A DNA stretch of 56,335 nt from Trichomonas gallinae (taxonomy: Eukaryota). This document shows positions 7,669-54,826 of this stretch, piece by piece. The position numbers and the translations under genes are program-made. Position 1 is the stretch's first letter; each line of letters starts with the position of its first letter. The stretch is taken from positions 1-56,335 of the forward strand of contig MRSU01008419.1 of assembly GCA_008369845.1 (NCBI GenBank), given 5' to 3'. Below the pieces are notes generated by a model. The model did not search any database, was not told the DNA's origin, and was given only the letters and a program-made list of their open reading frames with translations.

Positions 7669-8355
7669 TTATAATTGAATCTGCTCTGAAGATAATATCT
7701 TCTTAACTGATTCCAAGCAAACAGAAGCAGCCATTTCACAGCTCTTGAAATTGAAGCCGAGCTCATTAAAAACAAATTTCCAGTCATAGTGTGTATCACC
7801 GAGGACAAACTGGCTATAACGGCCGGCAAAATCTTCATCTTGCGTTCCTGCACGACCCCAATCTCTCATTCTAAGAACAGAATTGTAAATCTCTTTTGAT
7901 TTGAAGCAAACTACGCAGCAGCAGTTCTTTAGTGTGAAAATATCGACATCTGCTTCATCCATTTTCTCGATGATGTAGTTTTCAGAATATCTAATTAAAA
8001 TTGGAGCTTGTTTCTTTATAGATGTTGACTTTTTCGCTTCAACGATCTGAACTTTTGGTGTTTGTGATTCCTCTGGTGTCGTTGTCGCTCCAAGAAACTG
8101 AATGACGCCCAAAAAGTCATCTGTAAGCACATAATCGCCTTTGGTGATTCCGAAAGCTGCAAGTGAGAGTAGTAAAGCTGACTTTGCAGAGTTTACTAAG
8201 CATCCATTTTTCATTCCGAAATGCTCAGCAAGCAAATTTTCCAGTTGGGCTGCCTTTTTTCCAGGTGCAAGCCATCCAGCTTCGAGTGTTTCTCTAATTG
8301 ACTGCTCGCAAAGCTCATTGAGTTCTGAACTTTCGTGGTACTCCTGATACTTCAT
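7669..8355 (-). CDS. Truncated/divergent DegT/DnrJ/EryC1/StrS family protein (RfbH/NDP-hexose 3,4-dehydratase-like)
   Basis: N-terminal GWLAPG..LE..LAEHFG..GCLVNSAKSALLLSL..GITKGDYVLT; RDWGR and YDWKFVFNELGFNFKSCEMAA are RfbH-type motifs. The C-terminal small domain is absent. Confidence 0.75.
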   Translation of the reverse strand: MKYQEYHESSELNELCEQSIRETLEAGWLAPGKKAAQLENLLAEHFGMKNGCLVNSAKSALLLSLAAFGITKGDYVLTDDFLGVIQFLGATTTPEESQTPKVQIVEAKKSTSIKKQAPILIRYSENYIIEKMDEADVDIFTLKNCCCVVCFKSKEIYNSVLRMRDWGRAGTQDEDFAGRYSQFVLGDTHYDWKFVFNELGFNFKSCEMAASVCLESVKKILSSEQIQL

Positions 8356-8980: not shown

Positions 8981-11854
8981 TCAAAGGAGACCAGATAAAA
9001 AAATCAGCCAAGTTTGATGTACTTTAGAAGCATCACGAAATCCCATTTTGATGATAGTATTTTGGATGATGATTTCAAACTTTAATGACACTGTACTCTT
9101 TTTATCTTTATCATCAATTGCAGTGAGATGAACGGTGTGTGTCCCTGGATTCAGTGTTTCACTGATATTAATTGTCATTTCCTGGTTTGTTAGCTGCTTG
9201 TTCTCGAGGTAGACAAGTGAATTAGATTTCGTTTTAAGATCATTTATATTGTGTGTAATATTGATGTAACATGGATAGTCAATGTCATTGATACTATACA
9301 AAATTGACAGTGTTTTGTCTTGGCCTTTGATGAATTTAGCAGGTTGTTTTGAAAATGAAGCATTTAATTTAGGAGGAGAATATGATAAATCAAAAGAAGA
9401 AGAAATTGTGGATGTTTTCTCTGTTTCATCTTTTGCAGTTAAATTATAAAGAATATTTCCTTCTTCCAATGTGTTGTTAATATTTGATATAGTAAAGTTA
9501 AATTCATGAGGATTTGTGGATGATATTTGAATCTCTTGGGTAGCATATGTGGTATTTTCAAGAAAGAGCGTTAGTGTGACTGATCCACTACCATCAGTGT
9601 CTATAACTGTGCCTTGGATTACTATTGGAGTGTCTATATTATTCGTGTAATTTGCTCTGTTGTTAGGAGACAATGAAATTGTTGGAGCGTTGTAAGAAAA
9701 ATTGAATTTAATTGGTTGTTCGCTATGAAGATATTCATCTGCCGCCCAAATAAAAATCATGTGTTGGCCTTCTGACAAATCTTGAGGAATATCAATAGTA
9801 AAGGATTGATCTGAAACCGAAACACTTGAATATTGAGATGTGTGTGTTTTGTAATCAGTAACACCACGAGAGTCGATTTCGTACTTGATAGTGACTTCGT
9901 TGGAGTCAATATCCTTTATGTCGTATGCAAATGTTAGCGATTTTGGATCTTTATTCTTTGTGAATGAATATGTACTCTGAAGACCTTTGAGAGTTAGCTC
10001 AGGGCTATTATACTCGAAATCGAAACTGACTTCTTTTGTTGTAAATTTGCCGCTATCATGGGTGGCTTTCACAGTGAATGTGTTTGTGCCATGGACAAGT
10101 TCGTTATTTTCGTTATTGTAATCGAACATGAAACCATAGATTGATGTAGAGTTAATTGGTATTGGAACTTCACTTATAATCCTATTATTCAAAATAAGGG
10201 AAACTGTGATTTTACCTCTGCCATCGGCATCGGAAACTGAACCAGATATTCGTATTTGATCATAGAAGTTTCTAAAAGATGGTTTGACTGGCCGAAGATT
10301 AGAAATAACTGGTGTATGGTGCTTGTAATAATATGTGTACGGAACAGTTTGTGATTGCTTATCATAATCATCCTTCAAATAGAAATAGTATGTATGATCA
10401 CCTTCATTTAAGCTGTGATTTACTGCTAGTGAAATTGTTTTTTCTGAAGGTTGGTTATAATCTGTAAGATCGAATTTAGATACTATTTTATATCCACTAT
10501 CGATGGCCATGTACAGTGGAGTTTCTCCATTGAGGTTAGCAAATTGAAATGTAAATGTGATGAATTCGTTATTTGTAAATGTCTTTTTTGTTGTGGGGCT
10601 TGTAAGTCTCAAAGTTGGAGTGTTATAGCTGTAATTAAAGCTAAGGTCATCTGATTCCTCTACAATTGAACCATGTTCGTGCCATTCAAAATATACTCTG
10701 ATTTTATGCTGCCCCTCCTCAAAATAGTATGGAAATGTGTAACTTAAATTAAAATCGTTTCCGTTCAAGAGTTGACCAGATCCTGTAGAATAATCATCAT
10801 CAATAGCAATCTTTGCTGTATATAGATCTTGTTTTTTGTTTTGTAAAGTTCCATAAATTGTAATGAATGCATCTTTTTTCATGAATAAATTGTCCTTGTT
10901 TATTGATATGTTTTCGATGATAAGTCGGCTTGGATAGATGATTATTGAGTATGTCATCGATTTGGGACCAATTCTTCCATTAGGGCCAATTACATAAAAA
11001 TATATCGGAAATATACTTGAATAGCTACCAGACTGATCATATTTTCGAATCTCAGACGCAAGAATTGTCAAATTTTTTCTGAATGTTTCCGCCGATTTTA
11101 ATGTAGTGAATTTTTCACTACGGTAAATCGTAAGATTTCTTTCTTCATCATATACAGCAATTTGATGAATACCTGGTTGAAAAGCGCCTTGAAAATTCCC
11201 AGGAATCTCAATATTTTCGTCCTCATAATATCTAGGTAAAAAAAAATGGAAATTATTAATAATATCATAATAAGGGATACTTGTTGTATCAATGTAGTGA
11301 GGAAGACGAAAATGAGGATGTACTAAAGATAATAGTTTATTATCTAAAGCATTTCTTTTGATACTTGATTTGGATGATTTCAAATCGAATTCAAGTTTTT
11401 TCCATAATATATTGTCATTTGCATCACATTTGGCTTTTGAATGAGGAGGAATACGTTTTCTTCTACAAAAGAATGAAACAAAATAATATTCATCATTTTG
11501 ATCAATATAAATTTCATCATCTGGAGAAATATTTATATTACTGCTTTGATTAATATTCGAAATAGAGATATGTGAATTGTTGTATGATAGAGAAAGAGAT
11601 GCTTTGGGGATATGTAGAAATGTTTTGATAGAAACTTGTACCTCATGATCATTAAGGTTATCTATATCATAAACATATGTTGAACGATTGAAATATGCTT
11701 TAAATTTGCAATTATGTAATATTTTATCTTCAATTTCTCGGAATTTTATCGAAATATCTTCATCACCGATGCTAAAAATTGTGTATGAACTAGTATTCTG
11801 TAGAGTTACATAGTTTCCAATACAAGAAAAAAGAGAAAAACAAATCGCTTGCAA
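8981..11854 (-). CDS. Bap-like surface protein with tandem Ig-like beta-sandwich repeats; no ATG at the 5' end
   Basis: Repeated units of about 105 aa (ISGSVSDADG...GTNTFTVKATHD; IQGTVIDTDG...GTHTVHLTAIDD) and a hydrophobic C-terminus (WLIFLSGLL). The ORF is open for 957 codons but the first ATG is codon 300 (10957). Confidence 0.75.
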   Translation of the reverse strand: MQAICFSLFSCIGNYVTLQNTSSYTIFSIGDEDISIKFREIEDKILHNCKFKAYFNRSTYVYDIDNLNDHEVQVSIKTFLHIPKASLSLSYNNSHISISNINQSSNINISPDDEIYIDQNDEYYFVSFFCRRKRIPPHSKAKCDANDNILWKKLEFDLKSSKSSIKRNALDNKLLSLVHPHFRLPHYIDTTSIPYYDIINNFHFFLPRYYEDENIEIPGNFQGAFQPGIHQIAVYDEERNLTIYRSEKFTTLKSAETFRKNLTILASEIRKYDQSGSYSSIFPIYFYVIGPNGRIGPKSMTYSIIIYPSRLIIENISINKDNLFMKKDAFITIYGTLQNKKQDLYTAKIAIDDDYSTGSGQLLNGNDFNLSYTFPYYFEEGQHKIRVYFEWHEHGSIVEESDDLSFNYSYNTPTLRLTSPTTKKTFTNNEFITFTFQFANLNGETPLYMAIDSGYKIVSKFDLTDYNQPSEKTISLAVNHSLNEGDHTYYFYLKDDYDKQSQTVPYTYYYKHHTPVISNLRPVKPSFRNFYDQIRISGSVSDADGRGKITVSLILNNRIISEVPIPINSTSIYGFMFDYNNENNELVHGTNTFTVKATHDSGKFTTKEVSFDFEYNSPELTLKGLQSTYSFTKNKDPKSLTFAYDIKDIDSNEVTIKYEIDSRGVTDYKTHTSQYSSVSVSDQSFTIDIPQDLSEGQHMIFIWAADEYLHSEQPIKFNFSYNAPTISLSPNNRANYTNNIDTPIVIQGTVIDTDGSGSVTLTLFLENTTYATQEIQISSTNPHEFNFTISNINNTLEEGNILYNLTAKDETEKTSTISSSFDLSYSPPKLNASFSKQPAKFIKGQDKTLSILYSINDIDYPCYINITHNINDLKTKSNSLVYLENKQLTNQEMTINISETLNPGTHTVHLTAIDDKDKKSTVSLKFEIIIQNTIIKMGFRDASKVHQTWLIFLSGLL

Positions 11855-12487
11855 AATGTCACTTTTTGATTTTTTACGCCAATAATATTATAATGAACTC
11901 TAATAATCAAGCACTATTTCGATGATTCTAATTGATGTACGTTTCCGACTTAAAAGTGACAGTTAACTCAATTTTTGTTAAATGAAAAGAAAATTATTGT
12001 CCTAATTAAAACAGCTAAAATTCGAAAAATTTAAAAAGTGTCACTTTTACATGCTCTTAATTTAAAAACTACGAATAATTATAATATTATCATTAATTAC
12101 CATATTTATCAATGAAATGTATTAAATTAAAACTCCAGAGAATAATTTAAATGAAGGAATTAAGACAAAATTGAACAACTTTTGTTTGTCATGTAAAGTG
12201 TCATATACTCTTAGAAATTATAAAATAAAAAAGAAGTCATAATATAACTTCCTTTATCTCGAAATATATACTGTGAATCTAAACAGCCTTTTATAATAGA
12301 GTATTATACCTTATTTTCGAATTTTTACATTTCTTCAGAAAAAATCGATAAAAATTAGGGTATTACACCTCCACAATAATTGAATGAATAAAAAATAGGG
12401 TCCATGTTTACAAATATTTTTTGTTTCTTTTTACATAAATATACAAAAAAACTATAAATAGTAAAAAATTTCGTTAATTTAAAAAAA

Positions 12488-31789: not shown

Positions 31790-33165
31790 TTTTTTAATTA
31801 TTTAATCGTCAGCTTTCTAAAAAGTTGAAATACGGGTGAATAATACCATTTTAGCAAATAGTCTTCGCCATTCATTCAAAACTTATTCTGAGAGTATTCA
31901 ATTTATATAAATTTTGATTGAATAAACAAATGAATAATATTGGTTATATATCCGTATTAATGTGTTTTTTCATGCAAATGAAGTTAGCTAAAATGCCTCA
32001 CAAAAAATAAACCAATGAATTATCCTTCCATTTTGATGCTGTACTTGCATTCCTTAATAGCTAGCGTCGACAATTTCATAAAATATACTAATTAATTTTC
32101 GAACATTTTTAATCAAATCTTTATAACATCGCTATTTTTGGCAAAAAGATAAATATTGGGAGCTTACCAAGCCTAACAAGCCTATAATAACGAAATCAAG
32201 GCACAAATATTTGGCGTTAAAATTTATCGATTATTTAAAACCCTATAGTCATATACTAAATGACCTGTATAATTGCTTGGAAAATAACCTTTGAACTTCG
32301 GACATTTCATCTGATATCAAAATTTACTCCAAAAATCTTTTAAAAACATATAGATAAGTCCATGGAAGTCATATATCCATAAAGTACACCAATTTATATT
32401 ACGAACGATAATTTTTTTTTACAGAATTTTTTCTATTCAATTATTACTAAAGAATTAACGGGTGTGCTTCCACAATGATTAGGTTATATAAATAGGTGAT
32501 ATTTTAGGATATTTTTAGGTTGAGACAACAATGAATTTTGAATTGATTTTTATCGTACTTCAAAAATTTATAAAATTTAACTCAAATTTTTTATAACAAA
32601 ATAGTCAGATTAAAAAAATCAAAAAATAATATATGAAATAGGTTTTTATGATGGATTTGGTGATAATATTCCTTTATGATAAAATCTCATCGGCGTGGAT
32701 TTGGAACTTCATTGGATGCAATGTGTATAATCACCAATCTATATTTTTAGTGACAAATTGCAAAAAGACACCTTTTCTCCTCAATTTCTCCTTGACTTTC
32801 GGAGAACACGAAAACAACACTCATATATGTGAAATACTCACGAGAACATAACAACCCGCGAAATTATCCGTCCCATTCTCTGATGGGCGAATCTACAGGA
32901 TTCGAACGATTTGAAAATTATGACATGTATATTTCAAAATGTCATGTAAATAATAATGTTGTCAAAAATTATCATGTAAATTACATTTTGTCAAAAAATC
33001 AAATTACCAATATTTTGACTTTCAGATAGGCTCCTAAAATTGATAAGTGCTAAAATGTAACCCATATTTTGGTACACACAAGTTATTTTTCTTGATAGGC
33101 TCGAATTTTGAAAATAAAGTAATTAATTAACGAAAATGTAATATATATTAAGTTTTAAAGCTAAA

Positions 33166-47369: not shown

Positions 47370-47744
47370 ACTGTTGTTTTTAATTTTTTTTTTTGAAACT
47401 ATTTTGATATTACTCGCACTTAAAAACAGTATCTTTCACGAAATTGTTCATTCTAGTTAAACGTGCATTACGGAATTAGCTGAACCATTTTGACTCATAC
47501 TTGAAATATTATATATATAAGTTATATATAAGTATAAGTATATATAATAGGTATAAGTTTTTTAAAAAACCTAGATATTACACCTCTGTAGTTAATAGGA
47601 ACATGGCTTCTAATGATATATAAGGGATCTGCTGTTGATATTAAAAATTTGAATATTTGACTAATAAATTTTTATATGACAAAAATCAAATTTACATGAC
47701 ATATTGTCAAATTATTAATTGGAAAAATTCGTGACTTATTTTCG

Positions 47745-48632
47745 CGAGTTTCTGCCTTTATTATCATTGTCAGTAGCTACTTTATATGGATATATCGACC
47801 AAATTTGCCCAAATGCATTCTTAATTTTGAAGAAAACGAACAATTAAATACATCAATTTATATTGCGCAACTTATAGTATCTCAGCACAATCTCACACGC
47901 TTTTATACATCATATGCGATATGGGGAAAACAAATCGCGTTTCATTTTTCTAATTTAACTTATACAACAGTTTCAAGTCGAATTATATTGAATATTACAG
48001 GCAGAAGTTTGAGGTATTACATGCATGAGAAATGGAATATTTTGAATCGTGACTTACTTTACGGTAGTTATGTTTCTATAAAAGATTTCTTAGAAAATAC
48101 GAATTATTCATGGTATTTCAGGACGACAGACGATGTTTTAATCCATATTCCAAACTTCAAAAGGTTAATTAGCGATTTAGAGAATAAATATAATCCATTG
48201 AAAGATTTTGTGTTTAAAGGCCAATTATGTGGATCATATCTTCATGGAGGCCCAGGCTGGATAGTTTCGAGAGCATTAGCCGAAAAAATTGTACAAAAAT
48301 TGAATGATAAATATGATTCTCCTGATGATCTTGCTTTTTCGCAAATTGTTTCTGAATTTATGAAAAATCCAAGAGAATGGAACTCAGATAAGTTCGTTGC
48401 AACGCCATTACACAAATTTTCACTAAATATGATCGAAAATAACAGTTTTGATCAATTGCCTCCTTGTAGAACTCAAATATTTGCGAGAGTTAACGATATA
48501 GCAGTATGGCATGCTGGGGACCAAGATATGAGAGTTGTAACTCATGGAATCGATTTAATTGAAAAGCTTCCGAATTCTATTTACATTGGGAAATACTCTG
48601 ATTCTCATGCAGGATTTTGCCAACAAACATAA
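47745..48632 (+). CDS. GT31 (galactosyltransferase/fringe)-like type II membrane glycosyltransferase with a non-ATG 5' end
   Basis: WYFRTTDDVLI, YLHGGPGWIVSR and PDDLAF motifs. The frame is open upstream to a TGA at 47697 and encodes RVSAFIIIVSSYFIWIYRP (signal anchor). The first in-frame ATG is at 48021. The start coordinate given (CGA) is inferred. Confidence 0.75.
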   Translation, partial: RVSAFIIIVSSYFIWIYRPNLPKCILNFEENEQLNTSIYIAQLIVSQHNLTRFYTSYAIWGKQIAFHFSNLTYTTVSSRIILNITGRSLRYYMHEKWNILNRDLLYGSYVSIKDFLENTNYSWYFRTTDDVLIHIPNFKRLISDLENKYNPLKDFVFKGQLCGSYLHGGPGWIVSRALAEKIVQKLNDKYDSPDDLAFSQIVSEFMKNPREWNSDKFVATPLHKFSLNMIENNSFDQLPPCRTQIFARVNDIAVWHAGDQDMRVVTHGIDLIEKLPNSIYIGKYSDSHAGFCQQT

Positions 48633-51659: not shown

Positions 51660-53165
51660 TTATACATTATATAAGTTGGACATATTTTCAAGTATAGGTG
51701 ACATATATTCGCCATCTGCCTGAATATGCAGTCCTTCCAAGTAATTGATGCATCCGCTAATGAAACAATTCTCATTACAATGCATTAAATCATAGTTTAC
51801 CATGTTTTTAGCGTCAATGTAATGAATTTGAGCAGCTTCTGCAAGAATTTTTGTTCTTTGATCGCAGTCCATGTTAAAATGAGAGAATTCTACGAGAATA
51901 CTCCCAGAATTCATGAAGTAAGCCAGTTCAGAGCCATGATATTTAATTGCAAATAAAATTTTTGATCTTGATATATTATAAAGAATTCGAGGAATCATTT
52001 GTATTGAATAATTTATAACTTGTAACTCATATGATGGGAATTTTTCTTTAATAGCATTGATGACACTTGTTGAATTTGATTGACTCATAATAGGATCATG
52101 AAGAAAAGTTATGACATTCTCAGTCCGTGATAGATTAAAGTGTCTTTTGAAGTTACTATTTGGAATGTACAAAGAATCAGCAGAATATGGAGAAATATTA
52201 TTTTTTTGACTTTTGTCGAATTTGGACAATCCAATAATAGTATTATCATACAAAACATTATGCGCATTTATTCGCGTCGAATAGCTGCCGTTTACAAAGA
52301 TCTTCATGAAATAATCATTTTCAGCTGAGTTTTCGACTTCAATAAACGTGTGTTGTAGCTTGTTTGATGGATCATAGGCATTGAACATTAAATCTATGGG
52401 CATATATACGTCAATTAAACGATTTAAAAACGAATTTCTAGAATCATGAACACCAACTGTCCCAAATAGAACCAAATTATCCTTAACATAGTCAATAGAA
52501 GTTTGCATTGGGTTATTTTGCTGCAAAACTTGAGTGCTATCGATTGCTCTATACTTGGCGAACGAATTATTGATTCTTGCTCCTAATGATAAAAATTGTT
52601 CAGGGAATTTGTAGTTGCATGGATAATTAATGATGAGATTAGGCCCAATTGTTGATATATTGCGTGCTAAACAGTGCTGAATTGGATCTCCAAAGCATTT
52701 TAATTGAGTATATTTTGAATTTTCTTTAAAATTGGTAAGATGTAATTTAACGACATATTTATATCGAGTTGCCTGCTGATCTTTAAAATTGTTCGATGAT
52801 TTAGCACAAAATAAAAGTCCAGGATTTTCTTGAACGAATAAAAGCGGGAAATTTATTGCTAATGTATTATTATCGAAGAAATATGCATTTGTGATAGATT
52901 TTTGAGGGCAAAACAATTCACTATGAAATTGAATCCCTAAGAATGAAAAATACGAAGCAATTTTCCATGGATTATATGATGATATGGTTTTGTGGAACGA
53001 TATTTGTATAGTATCTCCGTTTGTCGTAACATCTCGAATTTGATTGCAAATATTTTGTGGATCTTCAAGAAAATCGTTCATATTCTTGAAGAATACTTTA
53101 TAAATGAAGTATCCTGCAGATATGCTGTATATTATACTGCAGAGGCCGAGTAATATTGAAACCCG
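51660..53165 (-). CDS. GT61 (DUF563)-like type II membrane glycosyltransferase with a non-ATG 5' end
   Basis: C-terminal SRSKILFAIKYHGSELAYFMNSGSILVEF resembles the GT61 HGAGL..F...VIE motif. The TM VSILLGLCSIIYSISAGYFIY lies upstream of the first ATG (53081), with an in-frame TAA at 53225. The start coordinate given (CGG) is inferred. Confidence 0.65.
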   Translation of the reverse strand, partial: RVSILLGLCSIIYSISAGYFIYKVFFKNMNDFLEDPQNICNQIRDVTTNGDTIQISFHKTISSYNPWKIASYFSFLGIQFHSELFCPQKSITNAYFFDNNTLAINFPLLFVQENPGLLFCAKSSNNFKDQQATRYKYVVKLHLTNFKENSKYTQLKCFGDPIQHCLARNISTIGPNLIINYPCNYKFPEQFLSLGARINNSFAKYRAIDSTQVLQQNNPMQTSIDYVKDNLVLFGTVGVHDSRNSFLNRLIDVYMPIDLMFNAYDPSNKLQHTFIEVENSAENDYFMKIFVNGSYSTRINAHNVLYDNTIIGLSKFDKSQKNNISPYSADSLYIPNSNFKRHFNLSRTENVITFLHDPIMSQSNSTSVINAIKEKFPSYELQVINYSIQMIPRILYNISRSKILFAIKYHGSELAYFMNSGSILVEFSHFNMDCDQRTKILAEAAQIHYIDAKNMVNYDLMHCNENCFISGCINYLEGLHIQADGEYMSPILENMSNLYNV

Positions 53166-53542
53166 CGAAAAAATCTGAATTTTTAGTGTCACTTTTTGAA
53201 ATATGAAAAAATTATCATGATTTTATTTTGGATGTAACTCATCACACAATCAATAATTTCCAATACAAGTCAAACCATCAGATACTATAACATTTATATA
53301 TTAGATTAATCTATATTTCATTAACCGGAAAAAGATCATGATTGATATTTTATCAATTTTAATATTTGTCTAATATTTTCGATTTTTTGACACTTTACAT
53401 GACATTTTTTTAAAAAAATCGTTTTTCTAAAAATTATACATGTTTGTTGCAACTTGCTTGTTGAATAAGTGTTTCGTGCTACATAAATATTTAAATAGAT
53501 TTAATTGTTTTACAATACAAACAAAATATATAAAATAAAATA

Positions 53543-54826
53543 TTATAATGTTAGGCGAGCAGAGTGATAAGTTCGCGGCCTGTAAGTTGGGATCGAATTT
53601 GGCATCCTTGGGGTTCTTTTGAGAACTTCATCTTTAAATGAATTCCTTGTTACTGAATTGTAGTCGCGCGCTTCATCTAAGCACTTGGTTCTGAATGACT
53701 TCCATAGATGCTTTCTGAGATTCTCTATATAATCGTTAACAACAGTTTGATCATCACGCTGATCTAAAATGTTTTTCAAAATTTCCTTTTGTACTACCAT
53801 TGGAATCAGAGAGAAGAAGTCACGATAATCAAGCAACATGCCTTTCACCCTTCGCACAACTGATGCTTTGAATTCATATAATTTAGAAGTATATACTTCA
53901 GGGAGAGCAAAAATGGTATTTTCACCATAAGTAGCGGCAACAAGAGTTGATTCACCTTCTGGAAGCTCAAAATCAAGTTCGCCAATATGTAATTTCTCTG
54001 GTTCGACGGATATTTTTGTAAAATCGATATTTCTATGGACTTTAATAAGTCCAGACTTAATCAAAATGAATCCATTGTGAATCGGATTTGAATTTTCGAT
54101 TAATGTGCCTTCTTCGATCTCGAAATCCTTGAGAGACTCTGCAACATACTCCAATATATCCGGATAATCGAACAAAGGCTCGAGTTTTGTGATATTTAAA
54201 ATTAATGCTGTTCTTTCTTGAACAATTAAGTTGTTAATCGTTTCTAAAACGAATCTGAATGTATATGGATCAACCCTGAGTACTTCAGTTTCGCCAACAG
54301 CAATGCAAAATTGTTTTCGATAAGAATTTGTGAGCATTTCTTCTCTTCCGACATCTTCTGAAACAGTAGCTCTTCTAACAATGCGAAAATGTTGCTTTCT
54401 AAGAACAGGATTGTGAATTCTGCGAATATATTTGCTTGATAATATTTCATCTGGATCTGTAGGCTCTTTATCGCATTTTTCGACGAGAATGACATTACCT
54501 GAGTATATTAAATACCATCCATCATTCAAATCATCAAGCTTATAAACTAATTCGCCGTCTTTGTAATTTTCGAGTTGAATTGCTTTGCAAATATCTTTCT
54601 GTACTCTTTCATTCTTCGCAATTGACGTGAAAACAGGCCATTCTTTGAGGTATGTGTATATAGCTTCGACATTTAAGAGAGAGCGTTGGTTTGGTGGCGT
54701 TTGAAGAGATCTGTAGACAGCGGACATTGCAAACCTAGGAGTCAGTGCATAAGCAGGCAATCTAGGTACGACAATGATTCTCTGGCGGCGAGCTGTTTTA
54801 GGAGAAACCCGCGCAGAGTAAGACAT
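53543..54826 (-). CDS. Cyclic nucleotide-binding domain protein (two CNB-like domains)
   Basis: LENYKDGELVYKLDDLNDGWYLIYSGNV and GFILIKSGLIKV CNB beta-roll motifs. ATG at 54826. Confidence 0.8.
   Translation of the reverse strand: MSYSARVSPKTARRQRIIVVPRLPAYALTPRFAMSAVYRSLQTPPNQRSLLNVEAIYTYLKEWPVFTSIAKNERVQKDICKAIQLENYKDGELVYKLDDLNDGWYLIYSGNVILVEKCDKEPTDPDEILSSKYIRRIHNPVLRKQHFRIVRRATVSEDVGREEMLTNSYRKQFCIAVGETEVLRVDPYTFRFVLETINNLIVQERTALILNITKLEPLFDYPDILEYVAESLKDFEIEEGTLIENSNPIHNGFILIKSGLIKVHRNIDFTKISVEPEKLHIGELDFELPEGESTLVAATYGENTIFALPEVYTSKLYEFKASVVRRVKGMLLDYRDFFSLIPMVVQKEILKNILDQRDDQTVVNDYIENLRKHLWKSFRTKCLDEARDYNSVTRNSFKDEVLKRTPRMPNSIPTYRPRTYHSARLTL

What the first reader, a model, noticed from the sequence alone, without database searches (positions are those of the whole stretch)
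53081..53195. Second ATG-less type II glycosyltransferase with the same in-frame motif (TTT TCG CGG GTT TC)
Seen on the minus strand: AAAAGTGAC (motif-2-like) - ACTAAAAAT - TCAG initiator-like - ATT TTT TCG CGG GTT TCA ATA TTA CTC GGC..., encoding FSRVSILLGLCSIIYSISAGYFIYKVFF. The frame is closed by TAA at 53225. The first ATG (53081) lies after the TM helix, and the following 473 codons are intact. The CGCG word sits exactly where ATG follows the initiator in neighbouring genes. Independent occurrence in a different GT family, in CpG-poor flanking DNA, makes chance or simple start-codon decay unlikely (inference).
Basis: partly seen in the sequence, partly recalled or inferred. Interest (0 to 1): 0.85.

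Follow-up and report, generated by a model that had tools for sequence, protein, structure and literature searches.

The report
ATG-less Golgi enzyme genes share motif
In a trichomonad parasite, a sugar-transferase-like gene encodes its predicted membrane anchor upstream of its first ATG, and a second, unrelated one nearby does the same behind a near-identical 14-base motif, so both are likely translated from a non-AUG start, which would explain why many such enzymes look truncated in annotations.

Summary
Observation confirmed. The minus-strand frame 53222-51663 is open for 520 codons; its first ATG (53081) is codon 48. The protein is GT61-like (POMGNT2 fold). The pre-ATG segment aligns without gaps to the N-terminal anchor of a Met-initiated homologue, whose Met falls on the TTT codon (53171) just before TCG CGG. 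A Fringe/GT31-like gene at 47700-48632 also lacks an ATG before its anchor and carries the same in-frame motif (13 of 14 bases) built from rare codons. The T. vaginalis sister protein is annotated from a Met about 140 residues in, with a 630-base gene-free gap upstream. T. tenax GT61 models have long annotated 5' leaders (n=6). No intron consensus or sign of homopolymer error was found. Best reading: non-AUG initiation of a full-length type II protein (0.5), most likely at an in-frame AUU helped by the motif; a start on the motif itself is the bolder variant (0.2). Against: no RNA, proteomic or orthologue DNA evidence was reachable; trichomonads carry many pseudogenes; one published test found no alternative start; the 10-base core also occurs just behind the ATG of the neighbouring gene.

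The parts
51660..53222 (-). Open frame of 520 codons plus stop, GT61-like type II membrane protein; first Met at codon 48
   Evidence: family:
53188..53197 (-). AAAAAGTGAC, matching the published M2 motif AAAGTGAC; contains an in-frame GTG at 53192
   Evidence: motif name from PMC4223856 passages
53172..53184 (-). Candidate near-cognate starts ATT 53180 (AAAA-ATT, M4-like context) and ATT 53174, around the initiator-like TCAG 53178-53175
   Evidence: M4 as translation-associated motif in PMC4223856; start site not measured
53158..53171 (-). Shared motif TTTTCGCGGGTTTC, read TTT TCG CGG GTT TC; the TTT codon aligns with Met1 of homologues P0004 and P0007
53088..53162 (-). Predicted signal-anchor helix VSILLGLCSIIYSISAGYFIYKVFF (Kyte-Doolittle 1.81 over 19 residues)
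53079..53081 (-). First in-frame ATG, immediately after the anchor
53216..53218 (-). Out-of-frame ATG opening a 9-codon frame that ends at the TGA inside the M2 motif
   Evidence: read from the sequence
47700..48632 (+). Second ATG-less gene, Fringe/GT31-like, 310 open codons, first Met at codon 108; motif TTTTCGCGAGTTTC at 47739-47752, in-frame AAAA-ATT at 47727

Best explanation
The gene encodes a GT61-like protein whose predicted membrane anchor lies upstream of its first ATG, and it is likely translated from a non-AUG codon in the 28 bases from 53192 to 53165, giving a predicted Golgi/ER type II enzyme of about 500-510 residues. Inferred mechanism: transcription would start just downstream of the M2 motif, leaving an mRNA with no AUG for about 95 bases; the ribosome would initiate with Met-tRNA at an in-frame AUU (53180 in the AAAA-AUU context, or 53174), and the UUUUCGCG(G/A)GUUUC element a few bases downstream would act on the RNA to hold the scanning complex there. 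The Arg at CGG would then give the positive charge before the anchor. Within the 0.5, I put about 0.3 on an AUU/GUG start and 0.2 on a start on the motif itself. Shown: open frame, anchor homology, motif, fold. Inferred: transcript start, translation, start codon, localisation, activity.
For: BLASTP aligns the frame to P0004 from frame residue 19 against P0004 residue 2 with no gap for more than 60 residues, so the homologue's Met maps to TTT 53171. The 47 pre-ATG codons score 45 against P0004 and 41 against P0007 (shuffle p 0.0055, 0.0095); upstream regions of 20 ATG genes score 13-30. 10 of 19 aligned homologues have a hydrophobic segment of 2.0 or more ending 10-20 residues before the conserved Cys; here 18. 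The model has a helix at residues 2-36, mean pLDDT 85.5. CGG is 6 of 515 Arg codons and TCG-CGR is 0 of 35 Ser-Arg pairs in the 20 ATG genes, yet both ATG-less genes use it, at the same distance from a T[C/G]A. GTGAC lies within 60 bases upstream in 3 of 3 ATG-less frames and 1 of 20 ATG genes (post hoc). The T. vaginalis sister (100/100) is annotated at 373 aa in two assemblies, matching from query residue 140, with 630 gene-free bases upstream. T. tenax GT61-family models have annotated 5' leaders of 7, 34, 75, 109, 124, 371 bases against a median of 14 in 15 other genes (p 0.02). All three ATG-less frames of the window are otherwise unbroken and no internally broken gene was seen in the gaps.
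Against: No transcript, ribosome or peptide data were reached, and no DNA of any orthologue, so dN/dS and conservation of the motif are untested. Only 2 of 11 homologue N-termini scored above shuffles, and the anchor is less hydrophobic than all 10 clear homologous anchors. T-rich leaders can mimic anchors: the untranslated leader of the neighbouring gene scores 1.80. Woehle et al. 2014 report many transcribed pseudogenes and no use of alternative starts in the one ATG-less construct tested (PMC4223856). A paralogue in another parabasalid has a plain ATG and no motif (L001), and the same gene was called from its internal Met elsewhere (P0020 against P0035), so short database models prove little. 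The T. vaginalis gene has other neighbours, and N-terminally short models are common in all T. vaginalis CAZyme classes (49 flagged rows). The 5' region folds no better than shuffles (z -1.19). The motif core also follows an ordinary ATG at 54813.
Confidence: 0.5

Rival explanations
1. Start-loss relic: the gene recently lost its ATG (ATT 53174 is one base from ATG) and is an untranslated pseudogene or yields only a cytosolic 473-residue product from Met 53081; the shared motif is coincidence or a promoter-proximal DNA element.
For: ATT 53174 lies one codon from the homologous Met. Trichomonad gene families hold many transcribed pseudogenes (PMC4223856); the GT61 family is large (14 models in the held part of the T. 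tenax file). The motif core occurs behind a normal ATG. Anchor hydropathy is at the low end.
Against: A start codon is a 3-base target against 900-2900 bases of frame, yet the window has three start-less intact frames and no internally broken gene seen. The second gene has TTA, not a near-ATG codon, at the matching place. The distant T. vaginalis sister (42% identity) is also annotated without its N-terminus.
Confidence: 0.27
2. The true ATG is the out-of-frame one at 53218, displaced by an assembly error in a homopolymer, by a natural indel, or reached by ribosomal frameshifting at the A-run before the TGA.
For: The ATG and runs of T and A are there; the second gene also has an out-of-frame ATG (47696) whose frame ends at the TGA of GTGAC.
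Against: 166 A/T runs of 5 or more lie in 37,104 bases of unbroken coding DNA. The two genes would need shifts in opposite directions. The product would have about 57 residues before the conserved Cys against 39-51 in 9 of 10 anchored homologues. Both ATGs lie upstream of GTGAC. It leaves the shared motif unexplained.
Confidence: 0.1
3. An upstream mini-exon (cis- or trans-spliced) supplies the ATG; ACTAAAAATTCAG (53187-53175) is a branch point and acceptor, leaving ATT TTT TCG CGG in phase 0.
For: The stretch resembles the fused branch/acceptor, and trichomonad introns are often near 5' ends (PMC13548475 Results). An upstream ATG directly followed by GT exists near 53276.
Against: Validated trichomonad introns keep CTAAC and AC/AAACAG strictly (PMC6260720, PMC13548475); here the site reads CTAAA, no donor of either type is present, and 0 matches to either consensus lie in the window. 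The second gene has no such acceptor.
Confidence: 0.06
4. The functional protein starts at Met 53081 and is a soluble enzyme; the anchor segment is a vestige in the 5' leader.
For: The Met lies right after the anchor and keeps all folded domains; P0003 in the sister clade is called from a Met at a similar place.
Against: Eight Cys positions are invariant or nearly so in the alignment and 10 N-glycosylation sequons are present, as expected for a lumenal domain; a 95-base leader is long for the group; the first Met of the T. vaginalis sister and of the second gene falls much further in; the P0003 call may be a gene-caller artefact like P0020.
Confidence: 0.07

Closest known systems
CAZy GT61 enzymes: POMGNT2 (AGO61) and EOGT (Pfam PF04577)
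   Same: Profile of the family alignment matches POMGNT2 at E 1e-15 and EOGT at 3e-10; the model matches POMGNT2 at E 7e-13, TM 0.47; N-terminal anchor then lumenal domains.
   Different: 10-13% identity; the window protein alone does not match PF04577; an extra beta-rich region follows the anchor; donor and acceptor unknown; no ATG before the anchor.
T. vaginalis TVAG_174640 / TVAGG3_0974430
   Same: Closest relative, 42% identity, sister in the tree; annotated without its N-terminal part, with room upstream.
   Different: Different neighbouring genes; its upstream DNA could not be read, so an open frame or motif there is unverified.
Near-cognate (CUG, GUG, ACG, AUU) initiation of N-terminally extended proteins in eukaryotes (recalled; reviews seen only as search listings)
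   Same: In-frame near-cognate codons upstream of the first AUG add a targeting segment.
   Different: Here the non-AUG form would be the only properly targeted form, the leader would be about 10 bases, and two unrelated genes share a sequence motif; no hairpin signal.
Trichomonas core promoter and start motifs Inr, M2 (AAAGTGAC), M4 (AAAAT[T/G]) as quoted in PMC4223856 and PMC13515687
   Same: M2 and an M4-like AAAATT are present; spacing from TCA is similar to the 10-base leader of mp50.
   Different: TTTTCGCGRGTTTC is not among the motifs in the passages I saw; the original motif paper (Smith et al. 2011) was not held.

Membership tests
GT61 glycosyltransferases | Match to Pfam PF04577 | tested here: inconclusive
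   Window protein: no match; 10 of 20 alignment members match; Atlas top three hits are PF04577 clusters at 0.92-0.93
GT61 glycosyltransferases | POMGNT2-like catalytic fold | tested here: met
   Foldseek E 7e-13, TM 0.47 on a pLDDT 85.5 model; profile match E 1e-15
GT61 glycosyltransferases | Catalytic and UDP-sugar-binding residues, transferase activity | not tested
   No residue-level comparison was made; activity needs an assay
Type II membrane proteins | Single N-terminal hydrophobic helix after a short basic tail, at the family's distance from the lumenal domain | tested here: met
   applies to the frame as read from upstream of the ATG
Non-AUG-initiated eukaryotic genes | No in-frame AUG before a segment conserved as coding | tested here: met
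Non-AUG-initiated eukaryotic genes | Start codon or motif conserved in orthologous DNA | tested here: inconclusive
   No orthologue DNA found; one paralogue has ATG
Non-AUG-initiated eukaryotic genes | Measured initiation at the codon (footprints, N-terminal peptide) | not testable with these tools
   No such data in reach
Trichomonas type A/B introns | Donor GYAYGY or GTWYWD with RCTAACACAYAG or TCTAACH(1,2)AACAG | tested here: not met
   0 matches in the window; consensus from PMC6260720

The most novel reading that the evidence does not exclude
Trichomonads have a dedicated, motif-defined way to start translation without AUG: a 5'-proximal UUUUCGCG(G/A)GUUUC element about 10 bases from the cap sets the start on its own Ser/Arg codons for a whole class of Golgi type II enzymes, which annotation has therefore cut short or filed as pseudogenes across the genus.
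Probability: 0.2. Interest if true: 0.9.

Novelty: new variant of a known kind. Interest (0 to 1): 0.62.

Why it matters
If true, a set of trichomonad glycosylation enzymes now annotated as soluble fragments would be full-length Golgi proteins: in the T. tenax table 17 of 30 GT8/31/47/61/64/82 models have neither signal peptide nor anchor predicted. It would overturn the published view that these parasites use no alternative start codons, offer a translational control point for surface-glycan synthesis, and, if the start is on the motif itself, be an initiation route without close precedent. The claim is cheap to test, because public Trichomonas genomes and long-read transcriptomes exist.

Tried and rejected
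No whole genome is held for the window. No RNA holder was listed; two same-study RNA contig sets gave no cover of either gene; this says nothing on expression. Word-based homologue searches: none for the GT61-like protein, one 90%-identical 203-aa call for the second gene, none for the third frame. Scans for orthologue DNA: none in metagenome contigs with the pair alignment, one paralogue with another alignment, none in viral contigs or prokaryote genomes; two 21-residue matches (L011, L012) are taken as chance. The motif scan of viral contigs gave 9 loci of 47-65% G+C, taken as chance. No Rfam match at 53000-53600. No significant 5' fold in 4 of 4 stretches. A single-sequence model of the second protein failed (pLDDT 36.5) and its PDB sequence search gave one unrelated hit. 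The sigma-70 scan is not applicable. Short database models (P0003, P0006, P0012, P0014, P0020, P0021, P0023) were rejected as evidence, since P0020 is a truncated call of an ATG gene. A start at CGC was rejected: that frame closes after 12 codons. Ten paper searches found no report of this motif or of non-AUG starts in trichomonads; the library lacks most subscription journals, so prior description is not excluded. The motif and peptides were not found in the readable supplements of PMC11288935; its protein FASTA and Table 2 were too large to read and may bear on the claim. Figures and supplements of PMC4223856 were not seen.

Full report
Setting. The window is intron-free, 30-37% G+C in most parts, with densely packed eukaryotic genes. 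The best named relatives of the gene are from Trichomonas vaginalis (42% identity) and Tritrichomonas foetus, so the source is a parabasalid, probably a Trichomonas relative. No whole genome was held.

Observation. On the minus strand the frame is open from 53222 to the stop at 51662-51660, 520 codons, closed upstream by TAA 53225-53223. The first ATG, 53081, is codon 48. Upstream of it lie AAAAAGTGAC (53197-53188), TCAG (53178-53175) and ATT TTT TCG CGG GTT TCA ATA, encoding FSRVSILLGLCSIIYSISAGYFIYKVFFKN. None of 20 ATG-started genes that I took as controls (overlapping antisense frames left out) has 47 stop-free codons upstream.

The protein. A full HMMER scan gave 26 hits; I aligned 19, leaving out five fragments and two weak, probably unrelated hits. 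10 of the 20 rows match Pfam GT61, the window protein not among them. The alignment profile finds POMGNT2 (E 1e-15) and EOGT; the model (pLDDT 85.5, helix at 2-36) matches POMGNT2 at E 7e-13, TM 0.47; the Atlas agrees. It works like a GT61 enzyme; catalytic residues were not tested.

Is the pre-ATG segment coding? 10 of 19 homologues have a hydrophobic stretch of 2.0 or more ending 10-20 residues before a conserved Cys; here it ends 18 before, with 1.81. BLASTP against P0004 starts at frame residue 19 against residue 2 and runs ungapped through the anchor into the lumenal domain, which puts the homologue's Met on TTT 53171, between ATT 53174 and TCG CGG. The 47 codons score 45 against P0004 and 41 against P0007 (p 0.0055 and 0.0095 in 2000 shuffles); 9 other N-termini gave p 0.12-0.95; upstream regions of the 20 control genes score 13-30. 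So the segment was, and probably is, the family's signal anchor.

The motif. The Fringe/GT31-like gene at 47700-48632 has its first Met at codon 108 and reads TTT TCG CGA GTT TCT before its own hydrophobic stretch. The 14-mer occurs exactly twice in the window (0.0013 expected, post hoc). CGG is 6 of 515 Arg codons, and none of 35 Ser-Arg pairs in the control genes is TCG-CGR, so the likeness is in the bases, not only in the peptide. Both genes have T[C/G]A eight bases before CGCG, but that relaxed pattern occurs 8 times in the window. Both have an in-frame ATT in AAAA-ATT, 12 and 15 bases before TCG, matching the M4 motif that PMC4223856 calls translation-associated. Against specificity: the 10-base core also lies at codons 5-8 of the ATG-started neighbour and inside another gene, and unanchored 13-of-14 matches occur in 6 of 190 ordinary pairs. 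The 5' RNA folds no better than shuffles. A third frame (11887-8984) also lacks an ATG for 310 codons, follows AAAAAGTGAC, and has no CGCG.

Other species. No orthologue DNA was reachable. The T. vaginalis sister (100/100) is annotated at 373 aa in the 2007 and 2022 assemblies, matching from query residue 140; supplementary Table 1 of PMC11288935 shows 630 bases without a gene upstream, enough for the missing 400 or so, though with other neighbours. In the held, cut part of the T. tenax gene file 14 models carry PF04577; I queried 12 (leaving out a 387-base fragment and a 2.9-kb model), 6 have an annotated 5' leader: 7, 34, 75, 109, 124, 371 bases, against a median of 14 in 15 consecutive other leaders (Mann-Whitney p 0.021). 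In the T. tenax CAZy table 17 of 30 GT8/31/47/61/64/82 models have no predicted signal or anchor. These are indirect: 49 T. vaginalis CAZyme rows of all classes are flagged as N-terminally short, some GT8 members are cytosolic (recalled), and one paralogue whose DNA I could read has a plain ATG and no motif (L001) while the same gene was called elsewhere from its internal Met.

Rivals. Splicing: no match to either strict intron consensus in the window (consensus from PMC6260720 and PMC13548475). Indel or frameshift from the out-of-frame ATG 53218: 166 A/T runs lie in 37,104 unbroken coding bases, the two genes would need opposite shifts, and the tail would be longer than in homologues. Soluble product from 53081: at odds with conserved Cys and 10 sequons. 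Start-loss pseudogene remains the serious rival: ATT 53174 is one base from ATG, and PMC4223856 reports many transcribed pseudogenes and no translation from one ATG-less construct. Against it, three long frames have lost only a start while no internally broken gene was seen in the gaps.

Mechanism. I favour non-AUG initiation (0.5): a short-leader mRNA starting behind M2, Met-tRNA initiation at an in-frame AUU, helped by the motif (0.3), or a start set on the motif itself (0.2). Transcript start, translation and codon are all inferred.

Literature. Seen: passages of PMC6260720, PMC6679479, PMC4223856, PMC13515687, PMC5009743; abstract, Results and supplement list of PMC13548475; one passage and supplement rows of PMC11288935; a term search without hits in bioRxiv 10.1101/2024.12.22.629724; general non-AUG papers as search listings only. 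Ten searches found no description of this motif or of non-AUG starts in trichomonads; subscription journals are mostly missing. Earlier notes of this scan held nothing on this genome; three loose parallels came up.

Verdict. A real, unusual feature with good evidence that the ATG-less segment is a homologous signal anchor, moderate evidence for a shared nucleotide signal, and no direct evidence of translation. New variant of a known kind; interest 0.62.

Noticed in passing
window 8981-11887 (-): Third ATG-less frame: 968 open codons, first Met at codon 311, weak Ig-like matches. Behind AAAAAGTGAC come in-frame ATT 11857 and TTG 11854 and a signal-peptide-like stretch (ILQAICFSLFSCIG). It lacks the CGCG motif, so ATG-less secretory genes here may not all depend on it.
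   Followed up: partly
window 54804-54817 (-): The ATG-started cNMP-binding gene next door reads GCG CGG GTT TCT at codons 5-8, the motif core in the same frame; it holds 1 of the 6 CGG codons in 20 genes.
   Followed up: partly
window 53218-53189 (-) and 47696-47734 (+): In both ATG-less transferase genes a short out-of-frame ATG frame (9 and 12 codons) ends at the TGA inside GTGAC; chance or stop-start coupling.
   Followed up: partly
L001 9980-10004: GT61-like paralogue in another parabasalid with CCCGGGTTTT, then TCAG-TT-A, then a normal ATG: a TCAG initiator-like word before a canonical start.
   Followed up: partly
window 32852-32864 (-): TTTCGCGGGTTG in the 1.4-kb gap between two genes, with no long frame behind it.
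   Followed up: no
window 7669-8355 (-): 228-aa frame that reads like a short DegT/DnrJ-type aminotransferase relative (resemblance recalled, not tested); possible bacterial origin.
   Followed up: no
earlier finding e1-621991: An unchecked note reports a Cryptosporidium GT34-like gene whose anchor is conserved upstream of the annotated start without ATG in eleven genomes; a possible parallel in another protist.
   Followed up: no
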